A stretch of 64,000 bases of DNA from contig CAVUHL010000003.1 of assembly GCA_963741305.1 (NCBI GenBank), forward strand, positions 77,993 to 141,992, read 5' to 3'. The stretch is from an uncultured Holophagales bacterium. GTDB lineage: Bacteria; Acidobacteriota; Thermoanaerobaculia; Multivoradales; UBA5704. The position numbers were made by a program, and so were the translations under genes. Numbering within the stretch: the first letter of the stretch is position 1; each line of letters opens with the position of its first letter. This document shows positions 24,127 to 51,500 of the stretch, one piece after another. The notes beneath the pieces were generated by a model. It did no database searches, was not told the origin of the DNA, and saw only the letters and a program-made list of their open reading frames with translations.

Positions 24127-25113
24127 TCAGAGCCGTGGAAGCTGGAGCCGGGCGCGCGTCCCGCCGAGCGGCGAGGCCTCCAGCGTGACAGAACCACCGT
24201 ACAACTCGGCGAGGTCGCTGACGATCGCGAGGCCGAGCCCTGATCCCCCGACCTGCTGGTCGGCCCGCACTCCTCGCTGCAGCACCTGAGCGCGCATGGA
24301 TGGATCGAGGCCCGGCCCATCGTCATCCACCGAGATCGAGAGTTGCTCGTGATCGATAGCTGACGAAATGGCGACTCGGGAGCGCGCCCACTTGCACGCG
24401 TTGTCGAGCAGGTTCCCCAGCATCTCGTCGAGGTCTTCCCGGCGGCCCGGGATCTCGTGCGCCGGCGAAACATCGGCGTCGATCCTCAGCTCGCGTTCCG
24501 CGTGCAGGCGCTGCATCGTGCGCACGAGGCCTTCGACGGACGGAAGGACAGCGCACCGCACTCCCAGCGCTGCACGCGCCGATGCGGTCGCACGGGCTCG
24601 AGCCAGGTGATAGTCGACCTGCCGCTGCATCCGCTCGACCAGCTGGCGGAGAGTCGCCGCGAGCTCGTGATGGCCCGCGGCGCCGGCCTGTTCTGCCTCC
24701 TGCGCGAGCACCGCGAGCGGCGTCTTCAATCCGTGCGCGAGGTCTCCGGCCGTGGCGAGGGCTCGGGCGACCGCGCGCTCACGGTCCTCGAGCAGCCCAT
24801 TCAGCTCGTTCACGAGCGGCTGCACTTCGCTCGGATGGTCGCCTTCGATTCGCTGGCTGCGTCCCTCGCGCACCGAAGACAGGCTGGCGTGAAGGCTCCA
24901 CAACGGCGCCACCGCTCTTCGCACGAGGATCAAGCCCCCCACGACGAAGGCTATGGCGAAGACTCCCATCACGGCGTGATACGTCTCACCGTGCAACCCG
25001 AGCTCCGGATGATTCCGGGCGAGCTTGAGCAGAAGGGCAGTGACCGTGACAAACACCGCGGTCATCCAGACGAGCGCTCCGGCGAAGAGGCGCGCGCGGA
25101 GAGAGCCCTTCAC
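24127..25113 (-). CDS. Two-component sensor histidine kinase
   Basis: N-terminal TM, HAMP-like, H-box AHGLKTPLAVL, HATPase motifs (NLLDNACKW, DDGPGL, GSGLGLAIV). Confidence 0.85.
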   Translation of the reverse strand: MKGSLRARLFAGALVWMTAVFVTVTALLLKLARNHPELGLHGETYHAVMGVFAIAFVVGGLILVRRAVAPLWSLHASLSSVREGRSQRIEGDHPSEVQPLVNELNGLLEDRERAVARALATAGDLAHGLKTPLAVLAQEAEQAGAAGHHELAATLRQLVERMQRQVDYHLARARATASARAALGVRCAVLPSVEGLVRTMQRLHAERELRIDADVSPAHEIPGRREDLDEMLGNLLDNACKWARSRVAISSAIDHEQLSISVDDDGPGLDPSMRAQVLQRGVRADQQVGGSGLGLAIVSDLAELYGGSVTLEASPLGGTRARLQLPRL

Positions 25114-32311: not shown

Positions 32312-32701
32312 ATGATCCAGGAAGAGACACAGCGACTGCTTCAGGTGTTGCGTGTGGCGATGCGGATCCTCGACGTCAGCAACCGGGACATCGAGAAGGC
32401 GCTCGGCCTGAGCTACGGCTATTTGAGCCGGCTGTTCTCCGGCAGCATCGAGCTCAAGGTGGAGCACGTCTTCCAGATCCTTGGCGTGCTCGGCCTGACG
32501 CCGGCGGAGTTCTTCCATCTCGCCTATCCCCGCAAACCCTCGCCGCCGAGCGAGGCCTCCACCCGAATGCGCTCGATCCTCGACGGCTTCGGGCCGATCC
32601 CGCGCGAAGAGCGTCCGCCCGCTGGAGACTTGAGCCCCGAGGAGTTGGAGGCGTTGGTTTCCAAGACGCTGCAGAAGCTGTTGCGGGAGGCAAAGGGGTA
32701 G
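32312..32701 (+). CDS. XRE/Cro-C1-type helix-turn-helix transcriptional regulator
   Basis: HTH RDIEKALGLSYGYLSRLFSG. Confidence 0.65.
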   Translation: MIQEETQRLLQVLRVAMRILDVSNRDIEKALGLSYGYLSRLFSGSIELKVEHVFQILGVLGLTPAEFFHLAYPRKPSPPSEASTRMRSILDGFGPIPREERPPAGDLSPEELEALVSKTLQKLLREAKG

Positions 32702-33126
32702 GGGAGGTTGCTCTCCTGGGCTCTGCTTAGAGGGCGAGGCTCCCTCTCCTGCGCAGTGGGGGGAGGGTTGGGGAGGGGGCCTCCCATCTTCAGCTTTCCG
32801 CTCTTCGTCCGGTATGATCCTCTCGTCCTAGACCTCGAAATGCTGGACTTGTCCGTCCTCGCCGGATCTATCAGCGGGTCAGCTCCTACAAACACCTCGA
32901 TCATCCTGCGCGATCTCAAGTCCCCTACCAGCCAGCGACTCAGACCTTCAGGCTTGGCTGAAGGGGCCTTCCGAAAGCCGGGTGGCGGCCGATTGGCCAC
33001 CGTCTTATGACTCTCTTCCAGCTTCTTGAGGATGATAGACTAGGCTGACTTAGGGCAAGGAGCACAGGTTCTTCGTAGTCGGTAGCAGGTTGAGTTGGTC
33101 GTCTCACGACTTGAGTATCTAGCCCG

Positions 33127-35360
33127 ATGAAATACTGGGGCGCGAGCAAAGGAATGATCGAGATAAAGAAACCCTCGCCAAGGCCGAAGCACTTCGTCGT
33201 GGATGCGAGGACTCTGCTTACTCTGGGCAGAGATAGCATCAAAGATCATCTTACAGCGATTATCGAGTTGGTAAAGAATAGCTACGATGCAGACGCAACG
33301 CTGGTAGAAGTTCACATAGAATCAGGTACTCCCTCCGACAGCTACATAAGAATAGCTGATAACGGGACTGGGATGACCGAAGAGGATATTGACGACCGGT
33401 GGCTTCGAATCGGATACTCGGCCAAGCAAGGTGCAACTCTTACGCAGTTAAGCAGGCGACGTACAGGCGAAAAGGGAATCGGACGCATTTCTGCAGACCG
33501 TCTTGGGTCCCGCCTGCTGCTCAGGACAAAGACTCAGTCCACGCCTCCAGTTGCTCTGTCTGTAGATTGGGACCGCTTCAATAAGTCTGGAAACACTTTG
33601 CAGACCGTGGAGATAGATTTTTACCCAGAATCAGAGATTGAGCTCCCCATTGGTCACAGTGGGGCTTCGAAATCCGGCACTGAGTTAATCATCCGTAACC
33701 TCCGGCAGAACTGGCCCAAAGCCGAGGTGGAGGCACTAAGAGAGGAACTCTCTACACTGACCCCGCCATTCGGTGGAGTCAAAGATTTCTCTATAACGCT
33801 GACCACTAATCTAAGCCACGCATTCTCTGGTATCGTCCAATCCCCTTTCTGGGAGCGTGCAGAGCTTCGCCTAGAACTGGAGCTGGCCGACGATCTCATT
33901 ACGTACAGTGTTTCAGGTCAATTACTGCCATCGCCCAAGCGCGACAGCCTGCAATGGGGTCAATTGATTCAGCGAATCGTCAACAACCGGGCCTATTCCC
34001 TGAGCCACCTAGTTGCGGTCCTGCTAGAATTACGCTTTTGTTTTTTCCTCGTAAGCCAGATCTTCTCAGAGGTACAAGCCTAACTCTGACAGACCTGCGC
34101 AACTTTCTAGATCAGAACGCAGGGGTGCGCATCTATCGCGACAATATTCGTGTTAGGCCGTACGGGGATCCTGAGATAGAGGGAGGCGATTGGCTTGGCC
34201 TTGCTGAGCGAAAGAGTCGTGAGCCTGCTGGCGCAGCAAGAAAGACTTTCAAGATAGCTGCAAATCAACTTGTTGGAGCAGTCTTTATCTCTCGCGATGG
34301 GAACGCTGAGCTGACTGATAGTTCTGCCCGAGAAGGTCTGGTGCATAGCGAGTCTTTCAGTGACCTTCGTCTGCTCGTGCTGGGAGCAGTGACGCTCTTG
34401 GAGGCACATTATCACGAAAGCTTTCTAACGACGAAGGGTACAACTGACACCCCACAGCGTCCGACGCAAGAGGTTGCTAAGCTAAAGAAGGGCATCAAGA
34501 AGCTGAACCGTGAGCTTCAAACGCTTGCCGATGTCCTGCCGCGGAGTTCTGCGAAGGAATTCGAGCGTGTTCTTATTCAGGTGAGCGAGGTAAGTCATCG
34601 GATCGACCAAACTCAGAGTTCTCTCAATGAACTTGTGTCCCAGGCTAGTGTCCTGCGTGGATTGGCCACTATCGGTGTAGCCTCCGCTGTGTTCGGTCAT
34701 GAGATTCAGAGCGCTGTCGATGAATTTCTAGTGGCTACAAGCACGTCCAGAGAGATTTTGATTAAGAGGCCGGAAAAGATTGAGGAAGCAGTGGAGGAGC
34801 TAGGGAAGGCAGAGAAGTATGCCAAGAGAGTCGGCGCCTGGGGGGCTTTTGCTTTGACGCGGGTACAACGAGACAAGCGCCGCCGCCGCCGCCTTTCAGT
34901 AGAAGATCTTATTGGAAATATGCTCAAGGACTTGAAGCCCGCTTTTGACTCCGTCAATATAAGGATTACAACGGATCTAGCACCAGTAACTGCTACAACC
35001 TTTGCGATGGACATTGAGGCTCTTCTTCTTAATCTTCTTACCAACGCCTATTCCGCGTGTCAGTTGACGCGGCGAAAGCGCGACATTCATGTTGTACTTT
35101 CGCCTGATCGTCGGCGCTCGCGCGACGGGTTTCTCATCGAGGTTGCGGATAGTGGGCCGGGTGTCGCCGATGCCCTTAGAGAGAAGATTTGGGAACCGCT
35201 ATTCTCGACAAAGGTAGACCAATCCAATCGGCCAACTGGCACAGGCTTGGGCTTATCGATCATCCAGGCCATCGTTGACGACCTTGGCGGTACTAGAGAA
35301 GTGAGTCACCATGCCCCGCTTGGTGGGGCGGTTTTTCGAATTTGGCTGCCTTCTGGCTAG
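33127..35360 (+). CDS. MORC/Hsp90-like GHKL ATPase (HATPase_c_3) fused to a histidine kinase (HisKA + HATPase_c); apparent frameshift near 33954-34083
   Basis: N-terminus: ELVKNSYDADA (N-box), DNGTGM (G1), GEKGIGRISA (G2), VRIYRDNIRVRPYGDPEIEGGDWLGL. C-terminus: H-box FGHEIQSAV, LLTNAYSA, DSGPGV, GTGLGLSI. Two overlapping ORFs in different frames (33127-34083, 33954-35360). Low GC. Confidence 0.65.
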
Positions 35361-36031
35361 GAGCTTCGCTGATGCCAAATATAGCGATTGTCGATGATCG
35401 TCACGATCCGCGGGTGACATTACGTCGGAGAATCGGTCTGAACCTACCGGTTGAGTGGGCAGTCATTGACACGCATCCGCTTGAGTCCCTTTCGGACTAT
35501 CCTGCATGGATAGTGGAGCATGAAGTCGCTACCCTCGTGCTTGACGAGCGACTACAAGAGCAGATGAACGACTCGGAGGGGCATGCATATTACGACGGCC
35601 ATGAGGTGGTGGTTTACCTTAGGCAACGATTGCCAACGCTCCCAATCTTCTTTGTAACTTCGTATCCTGAAGTGTCAGAGGTCGAGGAGCAATATGGTAA
35701 GGTCGAAGGAGTTTTTCCACGACGGGACTTTTTCGATAGCCGAGCTGATAAGCTTATTGAACGCCTAGTCCGCAGCGGCCAAAAGTACGTAGAAGTATAT
35801 GAGCGCGAGCTTGCCGACCTGGCTGAAATATCGAGGCGACTTGCGACAAGCACTGCCTCGGACGAGGATCGTAGTCGTGCGGACGCGATACGTAGCAAGC
35901 TGAATATTGCTTTCACTGGAGAGGCTATTTCCGACCGCGCCGCGTGGCTGGACGAGATGAATAAGCGACTCGGGGAACTCGAGGGCCTTCATGCCGAGAT
36001 TGAGTCATTCCTTAAGGGAAAAGGCAAATGA
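35342..36031 (+). CDS. Receiver (REC)-domain protein with C-terminal coiled coil
   Basis: IAIVDDRHD, LVLDERL, IFFVTSY receiver-like; helical C-terminus. Overlaps the kinase stop; likely start MPNIAIV at 35372. Confidence 0.55.
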   Translation: MAAFWLGASLMPNIAIVDDRHDPRVTLRRRIGLNLPVEWAVIDTHPLESLSDYPAWIVEHEVATLVLDERLQEQMNDSEGHAYYDGHEVVVYLRQRLPTLPIFFVTSYPEVSEVEEQYGKVEGVFPRRDFFDSRADKLIERLVRSGQKYVEVYERELADLAEISRRLATSTASDEDRSRADAIRSKLNIAFTGEAISDRAAWLDEMNKRLGELEGLHAEIESFLKGKGK

Positions 36032-36669
36032 GGTGGCGGCGGGTTGCAAAAGAGAATTGTATTCAGCCGTCTACTGGCAGCTATAAAGATTGGAAACATC
36101 TGCTTGCTGCCGAGGCATCTAATCAGTGTGTTTACTGTGCGATTCATGAGAGCTGCATGGGAGGAGTTCGAGTATTTCATGTAGAGCACTACCGACCGAA
36201 ATCCAAGTTTGCGGAACTAGTAAATGACTTCCGTAATCTTTTCTACTGCTGTCCAATCTGTAACGCATTCAAGGGAGACGATTGGCCGGGTGAACCTGCC
36301 CCGGATCATTCATTAGTTGCGTATCCCGATCCAAGTGAAGTCGACTATTGCGACATAATTTTTATTGACCCTGCGGGTATTGTCATGGGCAGTAACACCG
36401 CTGGTCGATATCTAGAGGAGCGCTTGTATCTTAATCGCGGTCAACTGATTGTTGAGCGCCGACTTGCAGTTATTCGAGATCGAATAGGTGAGCTTGTGGC
36501 TCTTTTGCAGCAAGATGTCTTGGCCTTGCAGGCTTTTGGGACAAACGAGGCCAATGGTTGGCTTATACGCCTTTCTTCTGTTCTTCTCTCGGTTGTCGAT
36601 ATGCAAGCAGAATTGATGCGGCTGAGGCCTTATGGCGACGAGGACCTATCGAGAGTTCAACATGACTAG
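36028..36669 (+). CDS. HNH endonuclease
   Basis: CVYC...VFHVEHYRPKS...YCCPICNAFKGDDW (CxxC / HxxH / CxxCNxxK); 4-nt overlap with the REC gene. Confidence 0.8.
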   Translation: MRWRRVAKENCIQPSTGSYKDWKHLLAAEASNQCVYCAIHESCMGGVRVFHVEHYRPKSKFAELVNDFRNLFYCCPICNAFKGDDWPGEPAPDHSLVAYPDPSEVDYCDIIFIDPAGIVMGSNTAGRYLEERLYLNRGQLIVERRLAVIRDRIGELVALLQQDVLALQAFGTNEANGWLIRLSSVLLSVVDMQAELMRLRPYGDEDLSRVQHD

Positions 36670-37837
36670 GGAAGAGTTGTGGCTTGATATGGGCCGACAC
36701 TTCACACCTGACCAACTCGCTGGCGATCTGGCTAGTCTTGTTGATGATCACTTCGAAGGAAATTATTCCGGATCTCTGGAGGTTCTTGATCTCTTTGCGG
36801 GAGACGGCAGGCTTGGACATGCAACTAGTGAGCGGCTTACTTCAAGAGGGTTTAAAACGAAGGTGACATACGCCGAAGTCAGGGAGGGCGTGCAGGGCTT
36901 GAGTGGTGATGACGCGTGGCTCGTTGCCAACGCCTTTAACTTGGAACTAGACGTTCTATTTGATCTTGTTGTCTGTAATCCTCCTTATCGACGTCTCTCT
37001 CGATTAGCTGCTCAAGAATTAGGCTTGCCGTGGGATCGGCTCAAGGCCGCAGCGCACAATCTATATTGTTTGGGTATTCTTAAGGCTCTCCAGCTTTGTA
37101 GGCCTGGAGGGATGGTTGCCGTTATAGCTCCTTTCGGCTGGATAAGGTCTACTCATGCACAGTCATTTCGCAAGCAACTTGCGGGATTCTGTGCAGAAGC
37201 TGTGGTTCATCCCCAGGCATCAAGGCGCCTATTTGATGGTGTAAGTCAGGACATTGCTCTTCAGATATTCAAGAGAGGCAGTGGGTCGGAGGAGGCTCTG
37301 CTTAGAGTGAACGATAGTATCATCCCTATCGACAGCGGGCGATGCGAGAACTCTGGCTCAACCTTGCCGGGTCCGCGGGTCAGGGTAGGGCCATTAGTTT
37401 GGAACAGAGTGAAGGAGTTTTTGTGCGCCGAGGAGGGAGACACTTATCCGGTCGTGTATGGAGGTTCCATCAAGGGGGGGCGTCTAGATCTTAGATCTGG
37501 CCGCTATGTGGCGAGGCAGTATGTAAAAAAGAGCGTAGTGCCGGCCGGGTTTATTTCGCGGGGTTGTTGCATTCTGCTGCGGCGGACCCTGAGAGGCTGT
37601 CCAGGCTCCTGGACTATTGATGCGACGATAACAGATTCGGACTTCTGCGCAGTAGCAGAAAACCATGTGATCGTCATAGAGGTTGAGAGTTGCGGTATTT
37701 CGGCTCGCATGCTCTGCGAGAGAGTATTAGTTGAGTTGACAAGCCACTGCCTGCTTCTTGGAAATCCCATTATCAGCACCTCCGCAGTCAAAGCTGCCAC
37801 AGGCGTTGCCTTCGCCGATTTGACTGGTGGAGACTAA
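36632..37837 (+). CDS. N6-adenine DNA methyltransferase (gamma-class, NPPY)
   Basis: Motif I VLDLFAGDGRLG, motif IV VVCNPPY; overlaps the HNH gene. Confidence 0.8.
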   Translation: MATRTYREFNMTREELWLDMGRHFTPDQLAGDLASLVDDHFEGNYSGSLEVLDLFAGDGRLGHATSERLTSRGFKTKVTYAEVREGVQGLSGDDAWLVANAFNLELDVLFDLVVCNPPYRRLSRLAAQELGLPWDRLKAAAHNLYCLGILKALQLCRPGGMVAVIAPFGWIRSTHAQSFRKQLAGFCAEAVVHPQASRRLFDGVSQDIALQIFKRGSGSEEALLRVNDSIIPIDSGRCENSGSTLPGPRVRVGPLVWNRVKEFLCAEEGDTYPVVYGGSIKGGRLDLRSGRYVARQYVKKSVVPAGFISRGCCILLRRTLRGCPGSWTIDATITDSDFCAVAENHVIVIEVESCGISARMLCERVLVELTSHCLLLGNPIISTSAVKAATGVAFADLTGGD

Positions 37838-37993
37838 CCCGGAACTGCCAGACAGGTGCCGAGCCGAATAAGTGCCCGAATAAGTGCCATCCGACTGTTG
37901 AGGACCGTTAGGCCGCACAGATGCAGCGTGGCCATCTCCAACTTTTAGCTGACTAATTCCAGTTGGACCGCCCATGAAGAAGAAAGCGAATCT

Positions 37994-38866
37994 ATGAGCA
38001 CTCAGTCCAATGACTTGGCACGTTATAAGGAAGGACAACGCCAACAGTGGGATAGCGTTGCCACCGGTTGGAAGAAGTGGTGGCGGGCTATCGAGGACGG
38101 CGCGCAACACGTAAGTCAGCGCATGGTCGAACTAGCGGAAGTTAAACCCGGTCAGCGAGTATTGGACATCGCGACCGGCATTGGCGAGCCCGCACTGTTG
38201 GCTGCAAGCCGTGTCGGCACCGCGGGGCTGGTTGTAGCAGCGGACCTCTCATCTCAGATGCTCGATATCGCCCGAGAGCGAGCAAATACGTTGGGGTTGA
38301 CGAATGTGGAGTTCATAGAATCGGATGTGGAGGGGCTGAATTTTCCTGATGGCAGCTTTGACGCCATTCTCTGTCGCTGGGGCGTAACATCTCTACCTAA
38401 TCCATCGAATACGTTGGTCGCGATACGGCGTATGCTGACTCCCAGCGGCTCGTTCGCCACTGCTGTTTGGGAAGCCGGACCGAAGGGTCGCCCCATGGCG
38501 AGCATTGCGACGGATGTTGCCCGAGAGATTTTTGATTTACCGTCACCCCAACTCGGAGTTCCTTCTCTGCCTGGATCAGCAAAAGGCGCCTTAGAAAAGG
38601 AGATGATTCACGCCGGGTTTACGGATGTACGCGTTGAAGAGATGACGCTTGCGTTGGAATTACCGTCGACCGAAGACTGCGCTCAATATCTCATGGATGT
38701 TTCGCCCGAATTTGCTACTTTGCTTTCCGATAAGTCGTCTGGACAGCAGAAAAAATTTCGGCAGAGACTCGCCGAAAAGCTCCGGCAGTACGTGATGGTT
38801 GATGGAAGCGTTCGGGTTCCAAATGTAACTATCTGCGCGGCGGGGCGAGTTCAATTTGGCACCTAG
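37994..38866 (+). CDS. Class I SAM-dependent methyltransferase (small-molecule type)
   Basis: RVLDIATGIGEPALLAA (motif I), DLSSQML, DAILCRWG. Confidence 0.8.
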   Translation: MSTQSNDLARYKEGQRQQWDSVATGWKKWWRAIEDGAQHVSQRMVELAEVKPGQRVLDIATGIGEPALLAASRVGTAGLVVAADLSSQMLDIARERANTLGLTNVEFIESDVEGLNFPDGSFDAILCRWGVTSLPNPSNTLVAIRRMLTPSGSFATAVWEAGPKGRPMASIATDVAREIFDLPSPQLGVPSLPGSAKGALEKEMIHAGFTDVRVEEMTLALELPSTEDCAQYLMDVSPEFATLLSDKSSGQQKKFRQRLAEKLRQYVMVDGSVRVPNVTICAAGRVQFGT

Positions 38867-38992
38867 AAGCGCACGACCCAGTGGCTCCAGCGGACGTCGG
38901 CGCCGCGCGCTGAGGCGACACATGGCGAGGTCGCCGGGCCTTTGAAGACCGGATAGGTCGTTTGGCGGCATGGATGACATGAAGGCAACACG

Positions 38993-39574
38993 ATGGCATA
39001 CACTGATTCTCGCGTAACGATCCACATGGCGGCGAGCCTTGACGGCTTCATCGCTCGAAAAGATGGAAGTGTCGACTGGCTCGAGACCTCAGACGAATTT
39101 GTAGACGGCGACACCATGGATCCAGGATTCGTCGAGGCCTTCCTCAAGACGATCGACTGCTACGTCATGGGATCGCGAACCTATGAGACCGCGCTTCGTT
39201 TTGAAGCCCAAGGTTTGGGGTGGCCGTACGGTGATAAACCCACCTTTGTCCTCACTAGCCGGGAGCTGCCGCGGGTCCGGGATACCGTCGAGCTCTACTC
39301 AGGCGATCTTGCGCAGTTCGTGAATGGGCACCTGCGGCCCGCATTCCGTGCCATCTGGTTTGTTGGAGGCGGTGTAGTCTCCGCCGAATGCCTTCGTCTC
39401 GGGCTTGCCGACGAAGTCCGTTATTCGATTTTGCCGATCTTGATTGGTGATGGGGTCCCATTCTTCGAGAAGCTCGACAGAGACATCGCCCTCCACCTGG
39501 CGGAGGTCAAAGCCTACAAGAGCGGCATGGTGGAGCTCTGTTATGAGGTGCGAGGACATCGTACGGCTAGATAG
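38993..39574 (+). CDS. Dihydrofolate reductase-like / RibD C-terminal domain protein
   Basis: IHMAASLDGFIARKDGSVDWL, YVMGSRTYETAL, IWFVGGG. Confidence 0.75.
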   Translation: MAYTDSRVTIHMAASLDGFIARKDGSVDWLETSDEFVDGDTMDPGFVEAFLKTIDCYVMGSRTYETALRFEAQGLGWPYGDKPTFVLTSRELPRVRDTVELYSGDLAQFVNGHLRPAFRAIWFVGGGVVSAECLRLGLADEVRYSILPILIGDGVPFFEKLDRDIALHLAEVKAYKSGMVELCYEVRGHRTAR

Positions 39575-46084: not shown

Positions 46085-48520
46085 TCACGGCTCGGGCGGT
46101 GACAGCGTCAGGCGGGCTTCGGGCTTCGACTTCACCGCCGTCTCTCCATAGGTCATCGGATAGTCCTCGACCGCCGCCCACTTGGGGATCTGGTCCTCGC
46201 GGTGGGGGCGGAAGAGCTGGGCGTCCTGGCCGGTGCTGTTGACCCAGGTCGACGCTTCGAGGTCGGCGAGGTCGACGATCATTCGCTGCGCGGATCCGAA
46301 GTTCACGGCGAACGGCTTGGTCACGTCGGCCACCGCGGCGTTGACTGTGAAAGCGGTGCCCGGGGCCGGGTAGGTACGGCTGTTGAACAGGCGCTCCAAA
46401 GGCGCGATGCCGCTCGCCCCCAGGGGTGAGTGGACGAAAGTCACCGAGTGCACCTTCCCGTAAGCCCAGCCCTCGGGGTCGTCACCATGATGCTCGGCGA
46501 GCCAGGCCACGGCCTGGGTGAGGCTGCGGCGGATGATGTCGTCGCGGCGCTCCACGGCGGGGGTCCGCCGGTCGTCGAAGAGCTTGTCGTCCGGCTGCGC
46601 CAGGAGTCCCGCGATCGACGGTACCTGGCTCATGCCCACGATGCGGTACTCCTTGAGCACGTCCGCGCCCAGCTCGTCGCCGAGGACCTCGCCGAGGAGC
46701 TGCCAGTACCAGGCCTCGTAGACCGAGGCGCCGACCGAGTCCGACCCGTAGCGGAGGTCCCAGTTGCGGACATGTTCGAGCGCCGCGCGCTCGCGGTCGC
46801 CGGCCGGCGGCACGGCGAGGAGAGCAGGGCGTATGGCCTTGGCGGGCAGCCCGAGGGTCTCCGCCTGGATATTGCGCAGGCCTTCCAGGGTGAAGCTTTT
46901 CCCGGCCGTGAGCAGCTCGGTGAGCCGCTCGGCGCGGTAGGGGTCGGCCATGTCATAGGCCAGGAAGTGCGGGTAGTCGTCCGCCGTCACCTTGTTGTTG
47001 GCGGTGACGATGAAGCCCGACGGCGGATCGAGCAGGCTCGGCATCTCGGCGTAGGGGATGAAGCCCTGCCACTCGGAGCGGCCATCCCAGCCCGGGACCG
47101 GCACCAGCCCCTGATGGCCGGCGGCGCGCATGGGGATGCGGCCGGTCGACTGGTAGCCGATGTGGCCGTCGACGTCGGCGTAGACGAAGTTGACGGAGGG
47201 GGCTTCCCAGTCCGCCAGCGCCCGGTGGAAGGACGGCCAGTCCTGCGCCAGGTTGAGCGCCACCAGGGAGTCGATCAGCCGGCCGCCGGCGAGGGCCGGC
47301 CAGCGCAGCGCCATCGGCGGGCTCCCCTTGAGCTCGGCGAGGGCGTCGTTGACGATCGGGCCGTGGTGGGTCTCCCTCACCTCCAGCACGAAAGGCGAGC
47401 CTCCCTTCACCGCGATTTCTTCGCGGCGGATCGAGAGGTCGCGCCAGCCGTCCTGGAAGCGGTACCGCCGCGGGTTCTTCGGGTTGTCGAGCTTCTCGAC
47501 GTAGAGGTCCTGCACGTCGGCGCACATGTTGGTGATGCCCCAGGCGATCCGCTGGTTGTGGCCGATGACGAGGAGCGGCATGCCGGGAAAGGAGAAGCCG
47601 ACTGCGTCGTAGCCGCCGCCGTGGAGGCCGACCTGATACCAGATCGAGGGCATCTGGAGGCCCAGGTGGGTGTCGTTGGCGAGCAGGGGCCGGCCGCTCG
47701 CCGTGCGGCTCCCGGCGACCACCCAGCCGTTGCTCCCCCAGGCCTGCGTCCCCACGCCGGAGATCGGGCCGAAGGCGGGGAGGGACGCCGCAATCGCGGA
47801 CCGAGCCTGGCGAGGCAGGGGCAGGAAGTCGGCGAAGGCCTGGACACCCGCGGGGACAATCACCGGCGCGCTCGCCGGATAGGGGGACATCAACCGCCGT
47901 GCGGCTGGCTCGCCGACCTTGGCGATCAGATGGGCGCGCACGATCTCGAAGCTGTGGTTGAGGCTCAGGTTGAGCGCCATCAGCTTGCCCCAGGCAAGCG
48001 AATCGATGGGCGTCCAGGTACGCGGCTCGACTCCGAGGATCGTGAGCTCGACCGGCAGCCGGCCGCGGTGGGACGAGACGTAGGCGTTCACCCCGTCGGC
48101 ATAGGCGGTGAGCAGGGCTCGGGTCGGAAGAGAGAGCGCCTGCCAGTCCCGCTCGGCGGCCTCGACGATGCCGAAGATGCGCATGATCTTGTCGAGCTCG
48201 AGGGCGCCTTCACCGAAGAGCGCGGAGAGCTCGCCCCGGCCGACGTAGACGTTGAGCTGCATCTGCCAGAGCCGGTCCTGGGCGTGTACATACCCTTGTG
48301 CGAAGAAGAGATCGTGGGCATTCTGCGCGTAGATGTGGGGGACGCCGGGTTCGACCCGTACGATTTCGACCGGGGCTTGGAGGCCTGGAACGGTGAGGTT
48401 GCCTTCGACCTCCGGGTAGGCACGGCGCACGAGCCAGTAGAAGACCAGGCCGAGGATCACGACCAACCCCACCAGGACGACGGCGGTCCAGCGCAGAACC
48501 TTCCACAGGCGGGATTTCAT
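46085..48520 (-). CDS. Penicillin-acylase-family Ntn hydrolase (PvdQ/AHL-acylase-like)
   Basis: N-terminal TM/signal; nucleophile context GSNGWVVAGSRTASGRPLLANDTHL. ATGA overlap with the NRPS stop. Confidence 0.8.
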   Translation of the reverse strand: MKSRLWKVLRWTAVVLVGLVVILGLVFYWLVRRAYPEVEGNLTVPGLQAPVEIVRVEPGVPHIYAQNAHDLFFAQGYVHAQDRLWQMQLNVYVGRGELSALFGEGALELDKIMRIFGIVEAAERDWQALSLPTRALLTAYADGVNAYVSSHRGRLPVELTILGVEPRTWTPIDSLAWGKLMALNLSLNHSFEIVRAHLIAKVGEPAARRLMSPYPASAPVIVPAGVQAFADFLPLPRQARSAIAASLPAFGPISGVGTQAWGSNGWVVAGSRTASGRPLLANDTHLGLQMPSIWYQVGLHGGGYDAVGFSFPGMPLLVIGHNQRIAWGITNMCADVQDLYVEKLDNPKNPRRYRFQDGWRDLSIRREEIAVKGGSPFVLEVRETHHGPIVNDALAELKGSPPMALRWPALAGGRLIDSLVALNLAQDWPSFHRALADWEAPSVNFVYADVDGHIGYQSTGRIPMRAAGHQGLVPVPGWDGRSEWQGFIPYAEMPSLLDPPSGFIVTANNKVTADDYPHFLAYDMADPYRAERLTELLTAGKSFTLEGLRNIQAETLGLPAKAIRPALLAVPPAGDRERAALEHVRNWDLRYGSDSVGASVYEAWYWQLLGEVLGDELGADVLKEYRIVGMSQVPSIAGLLAQPDDKLFDDRRTPAVERRDDIIRRSLTQAVAWLAEHHGDDPEGWAYGKVHSVTFVHSPLGASGIAPLERLFNSRTYPAPGTAFTVNAAVADVTKPFAVNFGSAQRMIVDLADLEASTWVNSTGQDAQLFRPHREDQIPKWAAVEDYPMTYGETAVKSKPEARLTLSPPEP

Positions 48521-51500
48521 TTCGGGCTGGTCTCCAGGGTCGAGGAACGGTCCCAAGACAGGTCAATACTGAGGCGCAGCCGTTCGGCCAGAGTCCCCAC
48601 GTGCGGCTCGGCGAGGGCGCTGACATGGTTGCCCGGAACGATCTCGATGTCGACGGGCAGGGGCGAGAGCGCTCCCCAGCCATGCGTGGGGTCGTCAGCG
48701 AAGTCGCCTTCGGCAGGCAGGAAGAGGGTGATCTTTCCCGGGTAGGGACCGGGCCGGTAGCGCCGGAAGGCGCGCACGTTGGTCTTGAACACGGCGAGCA
48801 ACCGCCGGAGCGACTCGGGGCCGGCCTTCGCGCCGAACGGGGTGTCCTTCAGTCCGGAGAGCAGGCGGAGCGCCTGGTCCTCGGACGAGAGCCCGCGGAG
48901 GTTCTCGGCGGTGAGGCCGAGATCGAGGCCCCAGAGACTCTCCAGGTAGTGGGCGATCTCCAACAGCCAGGGAGTGTCGTCGCTGTCGTCCTCGGTCTCG
49001 TGTCCCTCCGCCGGCCGGGGCCATGGCCCGGGGGTGGAGTCGACGATCGCCAGGAGCGCCACCTCCCGGCCCTCGGCGGCGAGCTGCCGCGCCAGCTCGA
49101 AGGCCACGGCTCCGCCCAGTGACCAGCCGCCGATGTGGTAGGGGCCGGAAGTGACCGCGGTGATCTCGGTGCGGTAGCGCGCTGCCATCTCCTCGATGCT
49201 GTTGAATGGCATCTCTCCGGGTCCTAGCCCACGCGACTGGAGGCCATGGAAAGGCTGGTCCAGCCCCAGGTGACGGGAGAGGGCCTGAAAGGCGAGGACG
49301 TCGCCGCCGGCCGGGTGGACGCAGAAGAACGGGGGACGGGAGCCGGCCGGCTGGAGAGAAACCAGCGAAGCCGCGGCCGGCGGAGGTGCATCCGTCTTCG
49401 GGCCGCTCCTTGCCCGCAGGCGCTGCTCCAGCAGCGCCCGTTCCTCGGCCGAAAGCCCGGCGCGGCGCGCGGCGAGCCGAGCCCCACGGTCATCAGCAGG
49501 CGGCTTGTTCGATGATTCCACGGGACGGGCCTCCACGAGCTTCGGCGGTCCTATCTCGGCGGGCAGCGCGGAGAGCCGGACATCCGGATCCGCCGCCACC
49601 GCTTCGAGCAGCCGCGAGAGGTGCGCGAGCATCCGCTCGACGGTTGTGCCGGTGAACAGGTCGGTGTTGTATTCGGCTTCGAGGCTGAGGCCTTGCGGCA
49701 GGTCGACGACCCCCAGGGTGAAGTCGAACTGCGAGGTGGCGGAGTGCACCTCGACCGGCTCGGCGGTGAGCCCTCCGATGCGGAGCGGCTCGCCGGAGCC
49801 GTTCCGCACCGAGAGCATCACCTGGACGAGCGGAGTGCGGCTCTTGTCCCGCGCCAGGTCGAGGTCCTCTACCAAACGTTCGAAGGGGACGTCCGGGTGG
49901 GCATAGGCGCCGAGGGCAGCCTCCCTCGACCGCCGCAGCAGCTCGCGGAAGGTAGGATCGCCCGAGAGGTCGAGACGGAAGGGGAGGACGCCGACGAAGA
50001 AGCCGAAGATACCCTCGGTCCCCGGCGTGTGGCGGTTGGCGACCGGCGAGCCAAGGACCATGTCCGTCCGGCCCGTGTAGCGGCCGGCGAGGGCGGCGAA
50101 GGCGGCGAGGCCGGTCATGAAGAGCGTGCTCCCCTCGCGCCGTCCCAGCTCCTTGGTCTGCGCGGCGACCTCCTGCGGAAGCGGCAGGTAGCGGGCCGCT
50201 CCCCGGAAGGCCGGCCGCGGAGGGCGCGGCCGGTCGGCGGGGAGGTCGAGCACCGGCGGTGCTCCAGCGAGCTGGCGTCGCCAGTAGTCGAGCTGAGGTG
50301 CGAGCCGCTCGTCGGTGAGCTCGCGGCGCTGCCAGACGGTGAAGTCAGCGTACTGGAGAGCCGGCTCGCCCGGCTCGGGGACGCCCAGCTCGCGCTCCAG
50401 GATGTCGATCGACCAGCCGTCGACGATGATGTGGTGGAAGGTCAGGAGCAGCCGGTGCTCCTCCTTCTCCAGGCGGATCAGGCGGGCGCGCCAGAGCGGC
50501 CCCATGGCGAGATCGAAAGGCTCTCGTGCCTCCGCCTCCGTCAGCCGCCGGGCCTCCTCCTCGCGGGGGCCGGCCGGCAGGGCGGTCAGGTCGGCCAGCG
50601 GAAGTGAGACATCCGCGGGGGACGCGATCCGCTGCCGCAGCCCCTCAGGGCCGTTGAAGAACGTGGTCCGCAGAGCATCGTGCCGGCGCGCTATCCCGGA
50701 GAGCGATCGGGCAAACTCGGCCGGCTGCAACGGGCCGCTCAGCCGGAGGGGGTTGGGGACGTTGAGGACCGATCCGCTGCGGTCGAGCTGGTGGAAGTAC
50801 CAGAGCCGCTCCTGGGCGGCAGCGGCCGGGGCTTCGGATCCTGTCCCAGCCGGTGTGATCGGGGGGAGCGGCGGGGCTCCCTGAGCCCGCAGGCTGCGCT
50901 CGATCTCCGCCGCCAGGGCCGCGGCGGTCGGGTTGGCAAAGATCGCGCGCAGCGGAAGATCGACTCCGGTCACGGCCCGCAGGCGGGCCAGAACGCGGAT
51001 AGCGAGCAGTGAATAGCCCCCAAGGGCGAAGAAGTGGTCGTGAAGGCCGATCGTGCTGCGGCCCAGGGCCTCGGCCCACAGCCCGGCTACCAGCTCTTCG
51101 AGGGGGGAGCGCGGCGGCCCCCCAGGTGCCTGGGAGGAGTCGGAGGAGCCATCTTCCGGTTCGCCGAGGAGCCGGGGTAGCCTGACCTGTTCCTCGCCGC
51201 GCTTCAGGTGCTCGATCCCGGAGAGCAGGCCGATCTGCGGCAGGGGGACTTCCGGGTGGGCGGCCAGCAAGCCGAGCAGGCGGGTGAAGTCATCGGCCCA
51301 GCGCTCTACCGTGGAGCGGTCGAACAGGTCGGTCCGGAACTCGAAATCGGCGACCAGCGTGTCTCCCCGGAGATCGAGCCCGAGCGTCAGGTCGAACTTG
51401 GACGTATGGTTCTCGACCGTCAGGGGAACGAGCGGCACCCCCGGTGCCAGCTCGCGGGCCGTCTCTTCCACGCCGAGGACGAAGGAGACCTGGAAGAGCG

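What the first reader, a model, noticed from the sequence alone, without database searches (positions are those of the whole stretch)
33127..37837. Low-GC four-gene overlapping operon: MORC-like GHKL ATPase-histidine kinase / receiver / HNH nuclease / N6-adenine methyltransferase
Four genes with start/stop overlaps form one translationally coupled unit in a visibly AT-richer block, so it was probably acquired horizontally. A gamma-class NPPY methyltransferase plus an HNH nuclease is a restriction-modification-like core. The core is preceded by a fusion of a MORC/Hsp90-type GHKL ATPase (N-box, G1, G2) to a histidine kinase (HisKA + HATPase_c), and then by a stand-alone receiver protein. I do not know this as a described architecture. 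It could be a defence system whose restriction activity is gated by a phosphorelay or a GHKL ATPase switch. Neighbouring loci carry IS elements, a STAND NTPase and a CPBP/Abi-type protease, which fits a defence-island context.
Basis: partly seen in the sequence, partly recalled or inferred. Interest (0 to 1): 0.85.

Follow-up and report, generated by a model that had tools for sequence, protein, structure and literature searches.

The report
Frameshifted Ambrosia-like phage defence operon
This is a horizontally acquired operon that links a MORC-like ATPase/histidine-kinase sensor and a receiver protein to an HNH nuclease and a DNA adenine methyltransferase; it is a distant relative of the recently described 'Ambrosia' anti-phage system, so it is real but not new, and in this genome its sensor gene is broken by a frameshift.

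Summary
The domain calls are correct. There is an N-terminal MORC/Hsp90/MutL-type GHKL module fused in homologues to a class-I histidine-kinase core, a divergent CheY-like receiver with a three-helix tail, a PtuB-like HNH nuclease, and a gamma-class NPPY N6-adenine methyltransferase. They sit in a low-GC block (GC 0.52 against 0.66; GC3 0.44-0.55 against 0.69-0.92).

Two corrections apply. First, the "fusion" gene is split here into two frames (33127-34083 and 33954-35360) by a frameshift near 33976-33990. Intact homologues are about 730-aa single proteins. Second, the architecture is already described. It was reported in silico in 2021 as a paraMORC-linked two-component-like module next to R-M genes. 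It was tested experimentally in a September 2025 preprint as the P. aeruginosa defence system Ambrosia (AbrA MTase, AbrB GHKL-kinase, AbrC receiver, AbrD HNH).

The window proteins are homologous to AbrB (37% identity, E 6e-74), AbrC (E 2e-9) and AbrD (E 3e-19). They are remotely homologous to AbrA (hhalign 98%).

The kinase-receiver-HNH core recurs in the same order in 39 other genomes from many phyla, with interchangeable methyltransferases. Verdict: a divergent, probably inactivated member of a known kind. The defence-island context is weak.

The parts
33127..33990 (+). 5' part (frame 1) of the abrB-like gene. It encodes the MORC/MutL/Hsp90-type GHKL ATPase and the first half of the transducer-like domain. 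N-box ELVKN is at 33265-33279, DNGTG at 33358-33372 and TGEKGIGR at 33463-33486. The ORF as listed runs on out of frame to a stop at 34083.
   Evidence: Pfam HATPase_c_3, E 1.3e-20. NCBIfam BbrUII/HgiDII GHKL restriction-enzyme N-terminus, E 5e-23 on the 70%-identical P0001. Invariant E47, N51, D78, G80 and G82 are retained. In Foldseek, the N-terminal 470-540 columns of the P0001 model match Hsp90, MORC2, SMCHD1 and MutL-NTD.
33976..33990 (+). Frameshift site. The conserved reading switches from frame 1 (...QRIVNN) to the -1 frame (QPGLFPEPPSCGP...) within about 10-15 nt (gtcaacaaccggg). There is no slippery heptamer.
   Evidence: Three-frame translations. Alignment to intact homologues. Coordinates. 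The identical sequence appears in an independent Logan assembly contig, L081. The site maps to a loop with pLDDT below 50 (P0001 residues 279-289) in the AF2 model.
33984..35360 (+). 3' part (frame 3) of the abrB-like gene. It encodes the rest of the transducer-like domain, long coiled-coil helices, a DHp with H-box FGHE (His codon 34698-34700) and the CA domain. N-box NLLTNAY is at 35031-35051, DSGPG at 35148-35162 and GTGLGL at 35238-35255.
   Evidence: Pfam HATPase_c, E 1.1e-16. Invariant H525, N636, N640, DxGxG and GTGLGL are retained. In Foldseek the C-terminal part of the P0001 model matches HK853, CpxA and LOV-HK DHp-CA (TMt about 0.6, 22-24% identity). BLASTP to AbrB(1-400): 37% identity, E 6e-74.
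35372..36031 (+). abrC-like receiver adaptor (219 aa). A (beta-alpha)5 REC domain (residues 1-121) has acidic pair D8/D9, phospho-acceptor D58 (35543-35545), T96 and a basic residue after beta5. It is followed by three long helices (125-158, 164-176, 189-218).
   Evidence: No Pfam or PADLOC hit. AF2 model has pLDDT 87. Foldseek finds 140 PDB receiver domains at E<=1e-3. A profile search against PDB finds a CheY homologue at E 7e-6. D58 and P91 are invariant across 39-71 homologues. BLASTP to AbrC gives E 2e-9.
36028..36669 (+). abrD-like, PtuB-type HNH nuclease (213 aa). It has CxxC...CxxC zinc ligands (C34, C37, C75, C78), catalytic H54 (36187-36189), N70, N79 and K82, plus a helical C-terminal tail of about 80 aa. 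The start overlaps the receiver stop by 4 nt.
   Evidence: Pfam HNH, E 1.7e-4. PADLOC PtuB, E 4.2e-21. NCBIfam PtuB, E 1.4e-7, below cut-off. Invariant residues in A6. BLASTP to AbrD: 27% identity over 149 aa, E 3e-19.
36662..37837 (+). Gamma-class N6-adenine DNA methyltransferase (391 aa from ATG 36662, or 401 aa from ATG 36632). Motif X FTP; motif I VLDLFAGDGRLG at 36782-36817; motif IV NPPY at 36977-36988; C-terminal domain with VGPLVWNR, RRTLRG and ENHVIV motifs.
   Evidence: Pfam Eco57I, E 4e-10. PADLOC MTase_II, E 1.9e-26, with weaker mad2 and PglX hits. hhalign to the AbrA family: probability 98.2%, E 4.5e-14 over 311 columns. BLASTP to AbrA alone is not significant.
32950..39400 (.). 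Low-GC block that contains the operon and two downstream genes of intermediate composition: a UbiE-like SAM methyltransferase (37994-38866) and a RibD_C protein (38993-39574). This is the probable horizontally acquired segment.
   Evidence: GC profiles. GC3 per gene. The Logan contig L081 spans 32449-39033 at 100% identity. No flanking repeats, tRNA or integrase were found.
32312..32701 (+). XRE-type HTH ORF (129 aa), 426 nt upstream of the operon. It is a possible analogue of the Ambrosia regulator AbrR only by position. Its composition is host-like, so it is probably not part of the acquired system.
   Evidence: Pfam HTH_3, E 5e-7. GC3 is 0.87 against 0.44-0.55 for the operon. jackhmmer finds no homologue next to any of the other loci.

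Best explanation
The locus is a divergent member of the Ambrosia / paraMORC-two-component family of restriction-like anti-phage systems. It was acquired horizontally, and here its sensor gene is disrupted.

The intact form has four working parts:
1. A soluble, dimeric sensor kinase (AbrB-like, about 740 aa). Its N-terminal GHKL-plus-transducer module is of the MORC/MutL/Hsp90 type. That module is joined by about 170 residues of long helices to a class-I DHp-CA kinase core.
2. A receiver adaptor (AbrC-like) with phospho-acceptor Asp58 and a three-helix tail.
3. A PtuB-like HNH nuclease (AbrD-like).
4. A gamma-class N6-adenine methyltransferase, a remote AbrA homologue.

Shown in the P. aeruginosa homologue: all four proteins are required for defence, as are the N-terminal GHKL Asn, the receiver Asp and the HNH His.

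Inferred mechanism: ATP-driven closure of the MORC-like module on an infection-linked DNA or nucleotide cue switches on autophosphorylation of the H-box His (codon 34698-34700). The phosphoryl group passes to Asp58 of the receiver. Receiver phosphorylation then licenses the HNH nuclease to nick or cut invading DNA. I think it more likely that this happens through protein-protein contact via the helical tails than through transcription. The methyltransferase, translationally coupled to the nuclease, supplies a self-mark or acts as part of the complex.

In this genome a frameshift at about 33976-33990 splits the sensor inside its transducer-like domain. The system is therefore probably inactive, unless the frameshift is a sequencing error or the two fragments reassemble.
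For: Identity:
- BLASTP of the window proteins to Ambrosia proteins taken from Table S1 of the preprint gives AbrB 37% identity over 400 aa (E 6e-74), AbrC E 2e-9 and AbrD E 3e-19.
- The MTase family matches the AbrA family by hhalign at 98.2% probability, E 4.5e-14.
- The residues mutated in Ambrosia are conserved here: AbrB N40 = N51, AbrC D60 = D58, AbrD H60 = H54.

Conserved synteny:
- Kinase-receiver-HNH occurs in this order in 39 other loci. These come from Gemmatimonadota, Paceibacterota, Planctomycetota, Bacteroidota, TM6, Chloroflexia, Elusimicrobia, Verrucomicrobiota, Proteobacteria and an archaeal MAG.
- An N6-adenine MTase is adjacent in 35 of the 37 informative loci, counting the window.

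Folds:
- The receiver model has pLDDT 87 and matches 140 PDB receiver domains. Its tail is all-helical, with no strand after residue 116 and no DNA-binding hit.
- The kinase model has pLDDT 82. It matches HK853/CpxA at the C-terminus and Hsp90/MORC2/SMCHD1/MutL at the N-terminus.

Other evidence:
- Sister branches pair the same kinase with receiver proteins plus an MBL-fold protein, or with receivers fused to a 250-aa C-terminal domain. This points to a modular sensor-receiver-output design.
- Frameshift.
- Horizontal origin.
- Experimental data on the homologue.
Against: - No experiment exists on this clade. It is only 36% identical to the validated AbrB, and UPGMA places it in a sister group.
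- The gene order differs (B-C-D-MTase against R-A-B-C-D). No co-acquired XRE regulator is present.
- BLASTP alone does not link the MTase to AbrA.
- The preprint reports infection-induced expression and calls AbrC a wHTH response regulator. That favours transcriptional control over the direct gating I prefer.
- The sensed signal, the nuclease substrate and the role of methylation are unknown.
- The frameshift could be an error of a long-read assembly. The genome is a single 8.38-Mb contig, and the Logan contig may derive from the same reads.
- All invariant residues are otherwise intact. That fits either a very recent mutation or an artefact.
Confidence: 0.75

Rival explanations
1. Transcriptional-control model, as proposed for Ambrosia. 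The kinase senses infection and phosphorylates the receiver. The receiver acts as a DNA-binding response regulator that switches on transcription of the nuclease and methylase genes. The enzymes themselves are not gated at the protein level.
For: In the preprint, reporters replacing abrA or abrD were barely expressed without phage and were induced on infection. The AbrC D60A mutant lost defence. The authors annotate a wHTH in AbrC.
Against: The AF2 model of the window's AbrC homologue has only three long helices after the receiver domain. There is no beta wing, and there is no DNA-binding hit in Pfam, in Foldseek against PDB or in a PDB profile search; the tail only matches a designed helical hairpin. 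Here kinase, receiver, nuclease and MTase are packed with 4-8 nt overlaps or an 11-nt gap, so the regulators and their supposed targets are probably co-transcribed. Sister branches fuse the receiver to a non-DNA-binding 250-aa domain or pair it with an MBL-fold enzyme. Induced expression is also compatible with positive feedback on top of protein-level gating.
Confidence: 0.3
2. The frameshift is a sequencing or assembly artefact, and the operon is intact and functional in the organism.
For: Apart from the single frame switch, every invariant residue of the family is retained in both halves, and there are no other stops. The genome is a single 8.38-Mb contig, which suggests long-read assembly. 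Another long-read MAG locus, L028, also shows a fragmented kinase. The shift lies in a variable loop.
Against: An independently built Logan contig (ERR11593400, 6585 bp) is 100% identical across the site. The site (gtcaacaaccggg) has no long homopolymer of the kind that usually causes indel errors.
Confidence: 0.3
3. This is an ordinary Type II or Type IV restriction-modification pair (HNH plus MTase) that merely sits next to an unrelated two-component system. That system would regulate something else, such as a stress response or epigenetic switching.
For: The 2021 study only inferred association from neighbourhoods, and found the genes induced under stress in Pectobacterium. PADLOC labels the MTase and the GHKL N-terminus with generic Type II R-M models.
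Against: The four genes keep their order and tight spacing across 39 loci in many phyla. In Ambrosia every component is required for defence. The receiver and kinase families are found essentially only in this context.
Confidence: 0.04
4. The locus is a decaying remnant in which only the methyltransferase, acting as an orphan, still has a role such as epigenetic regulation.
For: The sensor gene is frameshifted. In Ambrosia loss of any component abolishes defence. Orphan MTases commonly outlive their partner nucleases (general knowledge).
Against: Receiver, HNH and MTase ORFs are full length with all catalytic residues. Only one lesion is present, so any decay is very recent.
Confidence: 0.2

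Closest known systems
Ambrosia defence system of Pseudomonas aeruginosa (AbrR, AbrA, AbrB, AbrC, AbrD; bioRxiv 10.1101/2025.09.30.679545)
   Same: Both have homologous GHKL-histidine kinase, receiver adaptor and PtuB-like HNH, in the same B-C-D order, plus an N6-adenine MTase with the same catalytic-plus-C-terminal-domain layout. The residues shown to be essential in Ambrosia (GHKL Asn, receiver Asp, HNH His) are conserved.
   Different: Identity is only 27-37%, and the window belongs to a sister clade. The MTase is a remote relative placed downstream of the HNH instead of upstream of the kinase. There is no co-acquired XRE regulator. The receiver tail is modelled as all-helical rather than wHTH. 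The kinase gene is frameshifted. The host is a high-GC bacterium of unknown name, not a gammaproteobacterium.
HEF_HK (PF19191) / Response_reg_2 (PF19192) two-component-like pairs linked to R-M systems (Bellieny-Rabelo et al. 2021, PMC8011034)
   Same: Both have a kinase with the HATPase_c_3 + DHp + HATPase_c architecture, soluble, next to a divergent receiver protein and to R-M genes. The study proposed descent from paraMORC ATPases. The kinases fall in one BLAST cluster with the window's.
   Different: PF19191 hits only the HerA/C5-MTase branch (E 6.6e-5), not the window's clade. PF19192 hits the 380-400-aa fused receivers, not this 219-aa adaptor. That study's typical partners were C5 methylases and Vsr, and it included no experiments on defence.
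paraMORC1 GHKL ATPases of R-M operons (Iyer, Abhiman and Aravind 2008, PMC2292703)
   Same: [quoted passage not shown] The family was noted to co-occur with HNH endonucleases and methylases. The fold matches MORC2, MutL and Hsp90.
   Different: The 2008 paper did not recognise the extension as a histidine-kinase core, and it did not recognise the receiver partner. Whether paraMORC1 equals this family was not tested here, because no paraMORC1 sequences were compared.
Detocs (DtcA kinase, DtcB buffer receiver, DtcC receiver-effector); recalled from memory, Rousset et al. 2023
   Same: Both follow the logic of a cytoplasmic histidine kinase that senses infection and activates a defence effector by His-Asp phosphotransfer.
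   Different: The sensor domain and the effector differ (PNP-type ATP nucleosidase in Detocs). In Detocs the receiver is fused to the effector and there is no methyltransferase. No Detocs model appeared among the PADLOC hits. Homology was not otherwise tested.
Septu PtuAB and retron Ec78 PtuB HNH effectors
   Same: The HNH protein is most similar to PtuB models (PADLOC E 4e-21; NCBIfam PtuB E 1.4e-7, below cut-off). In both cases the small HNH nuclease depends on a partner ATPase.
   Different: The partner here is a GHKL-kinase plus receiver rather than the ABC/AAA-type PtuA. A methyltransferase is part of the operon.
BREX / Pgl (PglX methyltransferase, and PglW kinase in type 2); partly recalled from memory
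   Same: The MTase shares the Eco57I/PglX-type catalytic region (PADLOC PglX E 2e-7; NCBIfam BREX PglX E 7e-7, far below cut-off). In both, a methylase is embedded in a multi-protein defence system that contains a kinase.
   Different: PglZ, BrxC and BrxL are absent. The MTase here is much smaller. The kinase is a His kinase, not a Ser/Thr kinase.

Membership tests
Ambrosia (AbrR-AbrA-AbrB-AbrC-AbrD) | AbrB: HATPase_c_3 (GHKL) N-terminus plus a histidine-kinase C-terminus in one protein of about 747 aa | tested here: met
   The spliced window sequence is 37% identical to AbrB residues 12-398, E 6e-74. It has the same Pfam domains and the GHKL Asn (AbrB N40 = N51) is conserved. Caveat: the gene is split by a frameshift here, and only the first 400 aa of AbrB were available.
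Ambrosia (AbrR-AbrA-AbrB-AbrC-AbrD) | AbrC: receiver protein of about 209 aa with an essential phospho-acceptor Asp (D60) | tested here: met
   BLASTP E 2e-9 over 120 aa. AbrC aligns along the whole family alignment, and the Asp is invariant (D58 here). The REC fold is confirmed.
Ambrosia (AbrR-AbrA-AbrB-AbrC-AbrD) | AbrC carries a wHTH output domain (authors' annotation) | tested here: not met
   The AF2 model of the window homologue has three helices and no strand after residue 116. There is no DNA-binding hit. AbrC itself was not modelled, so this may reflect the authors' annotation as much as a real difference.
Ambrosia (AbrR-AbrA-AbrB-AbrC-AbrD) | AbrD: PtuB-like HNH nuclease of about 213 aa with an essential His (H60) | tested here: met
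   BLASTP gives 27% identity over 149 aa, E 3e-19. H54, N70, N79, K82 and the four Cys are invariant. Best PADLOC hit is PtuB.
Ambrosia (AbrR-AbrA-AbrB-AbrC-AbrD) | AbrA-type N6-adenine methyltransferase (about 448 aa) | tested here: inconclusive
   BLASTP is not significant (E 0.7). Profile-profile comparison with true AbrA orthologues (cluster 7, which are 37% identical to AbrA) gives 98.2% probability, E 4.5e-14 over 311 columns. This is a remote homologue, not an orthologue.
Ambrosia (AbrR-AbrA-AbrB-AbrC-AbrD) | XRE/HipB-like regulator AbrR as part of the cluster | tested here: inconclusive
   An HTH_3 ORF lies 426 nt upstream. However, it has host-like GC3 of 0.87 and no counterpart at other loci.
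Ambrosia (AbrR-AbrA-AbrB-AbrC-AbrD) | Gene order R-A-B-C-D | tested here: not met
   The window order is B-C-D-MTase. The A-B-C-D order is seen in L001, L029, L030 and L078.
Ambrosia (AbrR-AbrA-AbrB-AbrC-AbrD) | Scores above the authors' HMM thresholds (AbrA 100, AbrB 500, AbrC 150, AbrD 200 bits) | not testable with these tools
   The authors' HMMs are not available here.
Ambrosia (AbrR-AbrA-AbrB-AbrC-AbrD) | Protection against phage that depends on every component | not testable with these tools
   This is an experimental property. It was shown only for the P. aeruginosa system.
HEF_HK / Response_reg_2 two-component-like system (Pfam PF19191, PF19192) | HEF_HK DHp domain (PF19191) between HATPase_c_3 and HATPase_c | tested here: not met
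   There is no PF19191 hit for the window ORFs or for P0001, L001 or L014, even at E<=1. Only the L072-branch kinase hits (E 6.6e-5). An H-box (FGHE) with invariant His-Glu is nevertheless present, and the DHp-CA fold matches HK853.
HEF_HK / Response_reg_2 two-component-like system (Pfam PF19191, PF19192) | Response_reg_2 (PF19192) receiver protein encoded next to the kinase | tested here: not met
   The window receiver gets no PF19192 hit. hhalign links it to the PF19192-type receivers only over the REC core (95% probability, E 2e-8).
HEF_HK / Response_reg_2 two-component-like system (Pfam PF19191, PF19192) | Linkage to R-M genes | tested here: met
   HNH and an N6A MTase are in the same operon. 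An MTase is adjacent in 35 of 37 informative loci.
Classical Type II restriction-modification system | Nuclease and cognate methylase suffice; methylation protects DNA from the nuclease | not testable with these tools
In the homologous Ambrosia system, phage propagated on an AbrA-expressing host stayed sensitive, and kinase and receiver were required. This argues against the classical logic, although AbrA alone may not be active.
Two-component signal transduction (class-I HK plus CheY-like receiver) | H-box His, N/G1/G2 boxes in the CA domain; receiver with acidic pocket, phospho-acceptor Asp, Thr/Ser and basic residue | tested here: met
   H525, N636, N640, D675xGxG and GTGLGL are invariant. 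D8/D9, D58, T96 and a basic residue after beta5 are present. Folds are confirmed. Phosphotransfer itself was not tested.

The most novel reading that the evidence does not exclude
The receiver adaptor may not be a transcription factor. It may instead be a phospho-switch that directly binds and licenses the PtuB-like HNH nuclease. On this reading, a MORC-like, ATP-driven DNA clamp fused to a histidine kinase gates restriction-type DNA cleavage after translation. The window's clade would then represent a large, cross-phylum family with 1,129 representatives at 50% identity with E<=1e-30. In that family the same sensor kinase is plugged into interchangeable methyltransferases (AbrA-type, Eco57I-type, window-type, C5) and outputs (HNH, MBL-fold, receiver-fused domains). 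That is far broader than the Gammaproteobacteria-centred distribution reported for Ambrosia.
Probability: 0.35. Interest if true: 0.65.

Novelty: new member of a known kind. Interest (0 to 1): 0.35.

Why it matters
That type was validated experimentally only in a 2025 preprint, so the finding itself adds little novelty.

The comparative data gathered here do add three things:
- The kinase-receiver-HNH core is spread over many bacterial phyla and at least one archaeal MAG, not mainly Pseudomonadales.
- The methyltransferase is an exchangeable module.
- The receiver's output domain looks like a helical protein-interaction tail rather than a DNA-binding domain.

If the third point holds, these systems would be an example of nuclease licensing by His-Asp phosphotransfer from a MORC-like ATPase. 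That would bear on how MORC/MutL-type clamps signal. The copy in this genome is probably inactivated, so it is a poor candidate for experiments unless repaired.

Tried and rejected
- **Programmed frameshifting.** The switch is to the -1 frame, but the site (c aac aac c) is not an X XXY YYZ slippery heptamer. Rejected.
- **XRE ORF as AbrR analogue.** It has host-like GC3, and jackhmmer finds no homologue near other loci. Not supported.
- **Mobile-element boundaries.** There is no tRNA, no Rfam hit, and only chance-level 14-18-nt repeats. No transposase or integrase domain was found in the adjacent ORFs I scanned.
- **Promoter and terminator scan.** Counts were at chance level.
- **PADLOC.** No system-specific model exists for the kinase C-terminus or the receiver. 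Only generic REase_II, MTase_II and PtuB hits were found.
- **PF19191 / PF19192 membership.** Not met for this clade.
- **C-terminal domain of the fused receivers (A7) against HNH.** hhalign shows no relation, and there is no PDB sequence hit beyond the REC core. Its nature stays unknown.
- **Organism name.** The genome-collection scan did not return the source genome.
- **Phage or plasmid carriage.** Only 3 IMG/VR loci and 49 distant plasmid homologues below 33% identity. There is no evidence that this clade is phage-borne.
- **Rosetta-stone fusions of receiver and HNH.** None were seen among 120 listed receiver homologues, all of which are 193-236 aa.

Full report
**1. What is in the sequence**

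On the + strand between 33127 and 37837 there are five ORFs, not four:
- 33127-34083, 318 aa.
- 33954-35360, 468 aa.
- 35342/35372-36031, 229 or 219 aa.
- 36028-36669, 213 aa.
- 36632/36662-37837, 401 or 391 aa.

The first two lie in different frames and overlap by 130 nt. Pfam finds HATPase_c_3 in the first (E 1.3e-20) and HATPase_c at the C-terminus of the second (E 1.1e-16). It finds HNH in the fourth (E 1.7e-4) and the Eco57I-type N6-adenine methylase domain in the fifth (E 4e-10). It finds nothing in the third. PADLOC adds PtuB for the HNH protein (E 4.2e-21) and MTase_II (E 1.9e-26) for the methylase, with weaker mad2 and PglX hits. The GHKL N-terminus gets REase_II models. The third protein gets nothing.

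The block is compositionally foreign. GC is 0.517 against 0.659 for the rest of the window. GC3 is 0.44-0.55 against 0.69-0.92 in flanking genes. The low-GC stretch runs from about 32950 to about 39400.

**2. The "fusion" is one gene broken by a frameshift**

I spliced frame 1 (...QRIVNN) to frame 3 (GLFPEPPSCGP...) to give 744 aa. This sequence matches more than 2,400 proteins, and the best are single polypeptides of 720-790 aa covering 97-98% of the query. They include P0001 at 70% identity. In a 16-sequence alignment all invariant positions are kept in the window copy. These are E47, N51, D78, G80, G82 and GEKGIGR in the N-terminal GHKL domain, the FGHE H-box, and N636, N640, DxGxG and GTGLGL in the kinase CA domain.

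The conserved reading switches frame within about 33976-33990. The change is to the -1 frame, at a sequence that is not a slippery heptamer. A Logan assembly contig of run ERR11593400 (L081, 6585 bp) is 100% identical to window 32449-39033 and carries the same split. The lesion is therefore reproducible, although the reads may be the same ones. The source genome is a single 8.38-Mb contig.

The AF2 model of P0001 (pLDDT 82) places the equivalent residues (279-289) in the model's only internal loop with pLDDT below 50 and longer than five residues. That loop lies inside the alpha/beta domain that follows the GHKL fold. The closest relative (L082) has an intact gene and the same gene order, including the same type of methylase.

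**3. The third protein is a receiver with an extra tail**

An alignment of 39 homologues has an invariant Asp (D58) and Pro (P91). D8, Y74, G76 and T96 are nearly invariant. A 71-sequence alignment gave an AF2 model with pLDDT 87 and pTM 0.74. It shows a (beta-alpha)5 fold over residues 1-121 and then three long helices (125-158, 164-176, 189-218), with no further strands.

Foldseek against the PDB returns 140 matches at E<=1e-3. The top 50 listed are nearly all receiver domains or response regulators, such as RcsB, LvrB, PhoP, DesR and Spo0F, with TM about 0.7 on receiver-only targets. The exceptions are two amino-acid decarboxylases with a receiver-like wing domain. A sequence profile finds a CheY homologue at E 7e-6. 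The tail matches only a designed helical hairpin. A few database homologues carry a precomputed PF00072 hit.

"Stand-alone receiver" is therefore right for the fold, but it misses a helical output domain of about 95 aa that shows no sign of DNA binding.

**4.

Foldseek of the P0001 model splits into two sets of hits. The C-terminal 240-260 columns match HK853, CpxA and LOV-kinase DHp-CA cores (TMt about 0.6, 22-24% identity). The N-terminal 460-540 columns match Hsp90, MORC2, the SMCHD1 ATPase module and the MutL N-terminal domain. About 170 residues of long helices (407-577) join the two parts. NCBIfam links the N-terminus to the BbrUII/HgiDII GHKL restriction-enzyme family (E 5e-23).

**5. 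Conservation elsewhere**

A scan of one genome per species returned 80 loci. I clustered all ORFs in them. The kinase is followed directly by the receiver family and the HNH family in 39 loci besides the window. tblastn E-values range from 1e-5 to 1e-58.

The hosts, as named in the records, include:
- Gemmatimonadota and Candidatus Paceibacterota.
- Pirellulales/Planctomycetaceae.
- Legionella and Arenimonas.
- Many Bacteroidota.
- TM6, Chloroflexia and Elusimicrobia.
- Kiritimatiellales and Akkermansiaceae.
- A hyphomonad and an archaeal MAG.

An adenine methylase is adjacent in 35 of 37 informative loci, counting the window:
- An Eco57I + M_Eco57I_C type of about 533 aa in 25 loci, mostly overlapping the HNH stop by 4 nt.
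- An AbrA-type of about 440 aa in 8 loci.
- The window type in the window and L020, and also in the Logan contig L082.

Two Akkermansiaceae loci lack a methylase and sit next to a TIR/SEFIR-NACHT gene.

Other branches of the same kinase family have different partners:
- A 233-aa receiver plus an MBL-fold protein.
- A 380-400-aa receiver-fusion protein with C5 methylase and Vsr.
- HerA, plus a nicking-endonuclease-like protein.

An exhaustive search finds 1,129 representatives at 50% identity with E<=1e-30.

**6. It is a known kind**

Three papers bear on this:
- Bellieny-Rabelo et al. 2021 (PMC8011034) described HATPase_c_3 + HEF_HK + HATPase_c kinases next to Response_reg_2 receivers. They found 91.6% linkage, enrichment of R-M genes nearby, and proposed a paraMORC origin.
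- Iyer et al. 2008 (PMC2292703) had already noted a paraMORC1 family with a conserved C-terminal extension that co-occurs with HNH nucleases.
- A bioRxiv preprint of 30 September 2025 (10.1101/2025.09.30.679545) validated "Ambrosia" from P. aeruginosa. Its parts are AbrR (XRE), AbrA (N6 methylase), AbrB (kinase/Hsp90-like ATPase), AbrC (receiver) and AbrD (HNH).

The Ambrosia work shows several things. The system protects against sipho- and myophages. The point mutants AbrB N40A, AbrC D60A, AbrD H60A and AbrA T72A all abolish defence. Expression rises on infection. Phage grown on an AbrA-expressing host is still restricted.

I took the protein sequences from the preprint's Table S1 and compared them with the window proteins:
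- AbrB(1-400): 37% identical, E 6e-74.
- AbrC: E 2e-9.
- AbrD: E 3e-19.
- AbrA: not similar by BLASTP. However, AbrA is 37% identical to my cluster-7 methylases, and the profile of the window-type methylase matches that family at 98.2% probability, E 4.5e-14. The match covers both the catalytic part and the C-terminal part (VGPxV, RRTxR and ENHxIV motifs).

The mutated Ambrosia residues correspond to N51, D58 and H54 here, and all are conserved.

By N-terminal kinase similarity, P. aeruginosa AbrB groups with the L030-L032 loci at 40-45% identity. The window sits in a sister group whose members are 42-52% identical to the window and 29-36% identical to AbrB. That group mixes all three methylase types, so the methylase module has been exchanged. 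The Pfam models of the 2021 paper do not reach this clade.

**7. Mechanism**

- *Shown in the homologue:* all four enzymes and the phospho-acceptor Asp are required, and methylation by AbrA alone does not protect phage.
- *Shown here by sequence and structure:* a complete His-Asp pair, an ATP-competent MORC-type module, an intact HNH site and an intact NPPY methylase.
- *Inferred:* the MORC-like module closes on an infection-linked DNA or nucleotide cue. It signals through the long helices to the DHp, so that His is autophosphorylated and the phosphoryl group passes to Asp58. The phosphorylated receiver then licenses the HNH nuclease.

The preprint favours transcriptional control through a wHTH in AbrC. 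Three observations lean towards direct protein-level gating instead. The tail of the window homologue is all-helical. The genes are tightly packed and probably co-transcribed. Sister systems fuse the receiver to non-DNA-binding domains. None of these is decisive, and I put the two models at roughly even odds. One caveat applies to the preprint's methylation test: AbrA expressed alone may be inactive, as some complex-dependent methylases are (general knowledge of BREX PglX, from memory).

**8. Context**

Most of the neighbours I scanned are metabolic or transport genes. They include an FAD/BBE oxidase, a beta-lactamase-fold protein, a sulfatase-TPR protein, a TonB-dependent receptor, SAM methyltransferases, a pterin dehydratase and a HAD hydrolase. 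There are also an acyl-CoA dehydrogenase, 3HCDH, a P450, a penicillin amidase and an NRPS. An nSTAND1-ankyrin NTPase lies 15.5 kb upstream.

I found no transposase, integrase, tRNA or flanking repeat at the block's edges. The upstream XRE ORF has host-like composition and is not conserved at other loci. "Defence island" is therefore not supported, but horizontal acquisition is.

**9. Verdict**

The interpretation points in the right direction, but the architecture is already described and was recently validated. This is a new, divergent and probably inactivated member of a known kind.

Noticed in passing
window 32312-32701 (+): An XRE-family HTH ORF (Pfam HTH_3, E 5e-7) lies 426 nt upstream of the operon. 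Its GC3 of 0.87 is host-like, and no homologue sits next to related systems. It is probably a host gene rather than a C-protein or AbrR analogue.
   Followed up: partly
window 37994-39574 (+): Two genes lie downstream of the methylase: a UbiE/COQ5-like SAM methyltransferase (37994-38866) and a RibD_C-domain protein (38993-39574). They have intermediate GC3 (0.56 and 0.65) and may have been acquired with the operon. They are not conserved next to related systems.
   Followed up: partly
L081 = window 32449-39033: The independent Logan contig that carries the operon starts and ends close to the edges of the low-GC block. Assembly-graph breaks at both edges would fit a strain-variable or multi-context island in the sampled population.
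   Followed up: no
window 35312-35330 (+): A terminator-like hairpin (8-bp stem, 6 GC pairs, followed by TTTTT) sits inside the last 50 nt of the kinase gene, just before the receiver gene. The overall count of such sites in the region is at chance level.
   Followed up: no
window 13556-17569 (+): A 1337-aa protein has an nSTAND1 NTPase domain (E 2e-43) and multiple ankyrin repeats. It is 15.5 kb from the operon and has host-like GC3 (0.76).
   Followed up: partly
window 48517-63802 (-): A large non-ribosomal peptide synthetase cluster. One 4026-aa protein has four condensation, three adenylation and four carrier domains plus a thioesterase. It is preceded by a 1073-aa C-A-T module that runs towards the window end.
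   Followed up: partly
window 6001-7000; ORF 6097-7002 (+): A second low-GC patch (GC 0.518 in a region of about 0.62) holds a 301-aa ORF with no Pfam hit. It may be another small foreign insertion.
   Followed up: no
L031:7176-10373 (-), L032:3693-6860 (-): In two Akkermansiaceae MAGs the kinase-receiver-HNH core has no adjacent methyltransferase. It is followed instead by a 1055-1065-aa TIR/SEFIR-NACHT STAND protein on the opposite strand. These kinases are the closest to P. aeruginosa AbrB (40-42% identity).
   Followed up: partly
L028:10001-12870: In a long-read Chloroflexia MAG the kinase gene appears as three ORF fragments (268, 200 and 207 aa) and the receiver is truncated (132 aa). This is either another decayed copy or the result of indel errors in the assembly.
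   Followed up: no
L039, L042, L045, L047, L049, L052 and others (16 loci): A sister branch pairs the same GHKL-kinase with a 233-aa receiver protein and a 339-aa metallo-beta-lactamase-fold protein. The MBL-fold protein gets PADLOC hits to DRT, Lamassu and PDC-M48 MBL effectors. An AbrA-type methylase often lies upstream. I found no description of this variant in the papers read.
   Followed up: partly
L038, L043, L054, L072: Another branch has the order Vsr, C5 methylase, a 358-aa protein, a HerA-like ATPase, the GHKL-kinase (the only branch hit by PF19191), a Response_reg_2 receiver fusion, and a nicking-endonuclease-like protein. The roughly 250-aa C-terminal domain of the receiver fusion has no detectable homologue. 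Its conserved motifs are GDI, LTPxCD...K and RxGxPDID.
   Followed up: partly
window 24127-25113 (-): An unrelated 328-aa ORF with a C-terminal HATPase_c domain (E 6e-20) has host-like composition. It looks like an ordinary histidine-kinase-like gene and is not part of the system.
   Followed up: no
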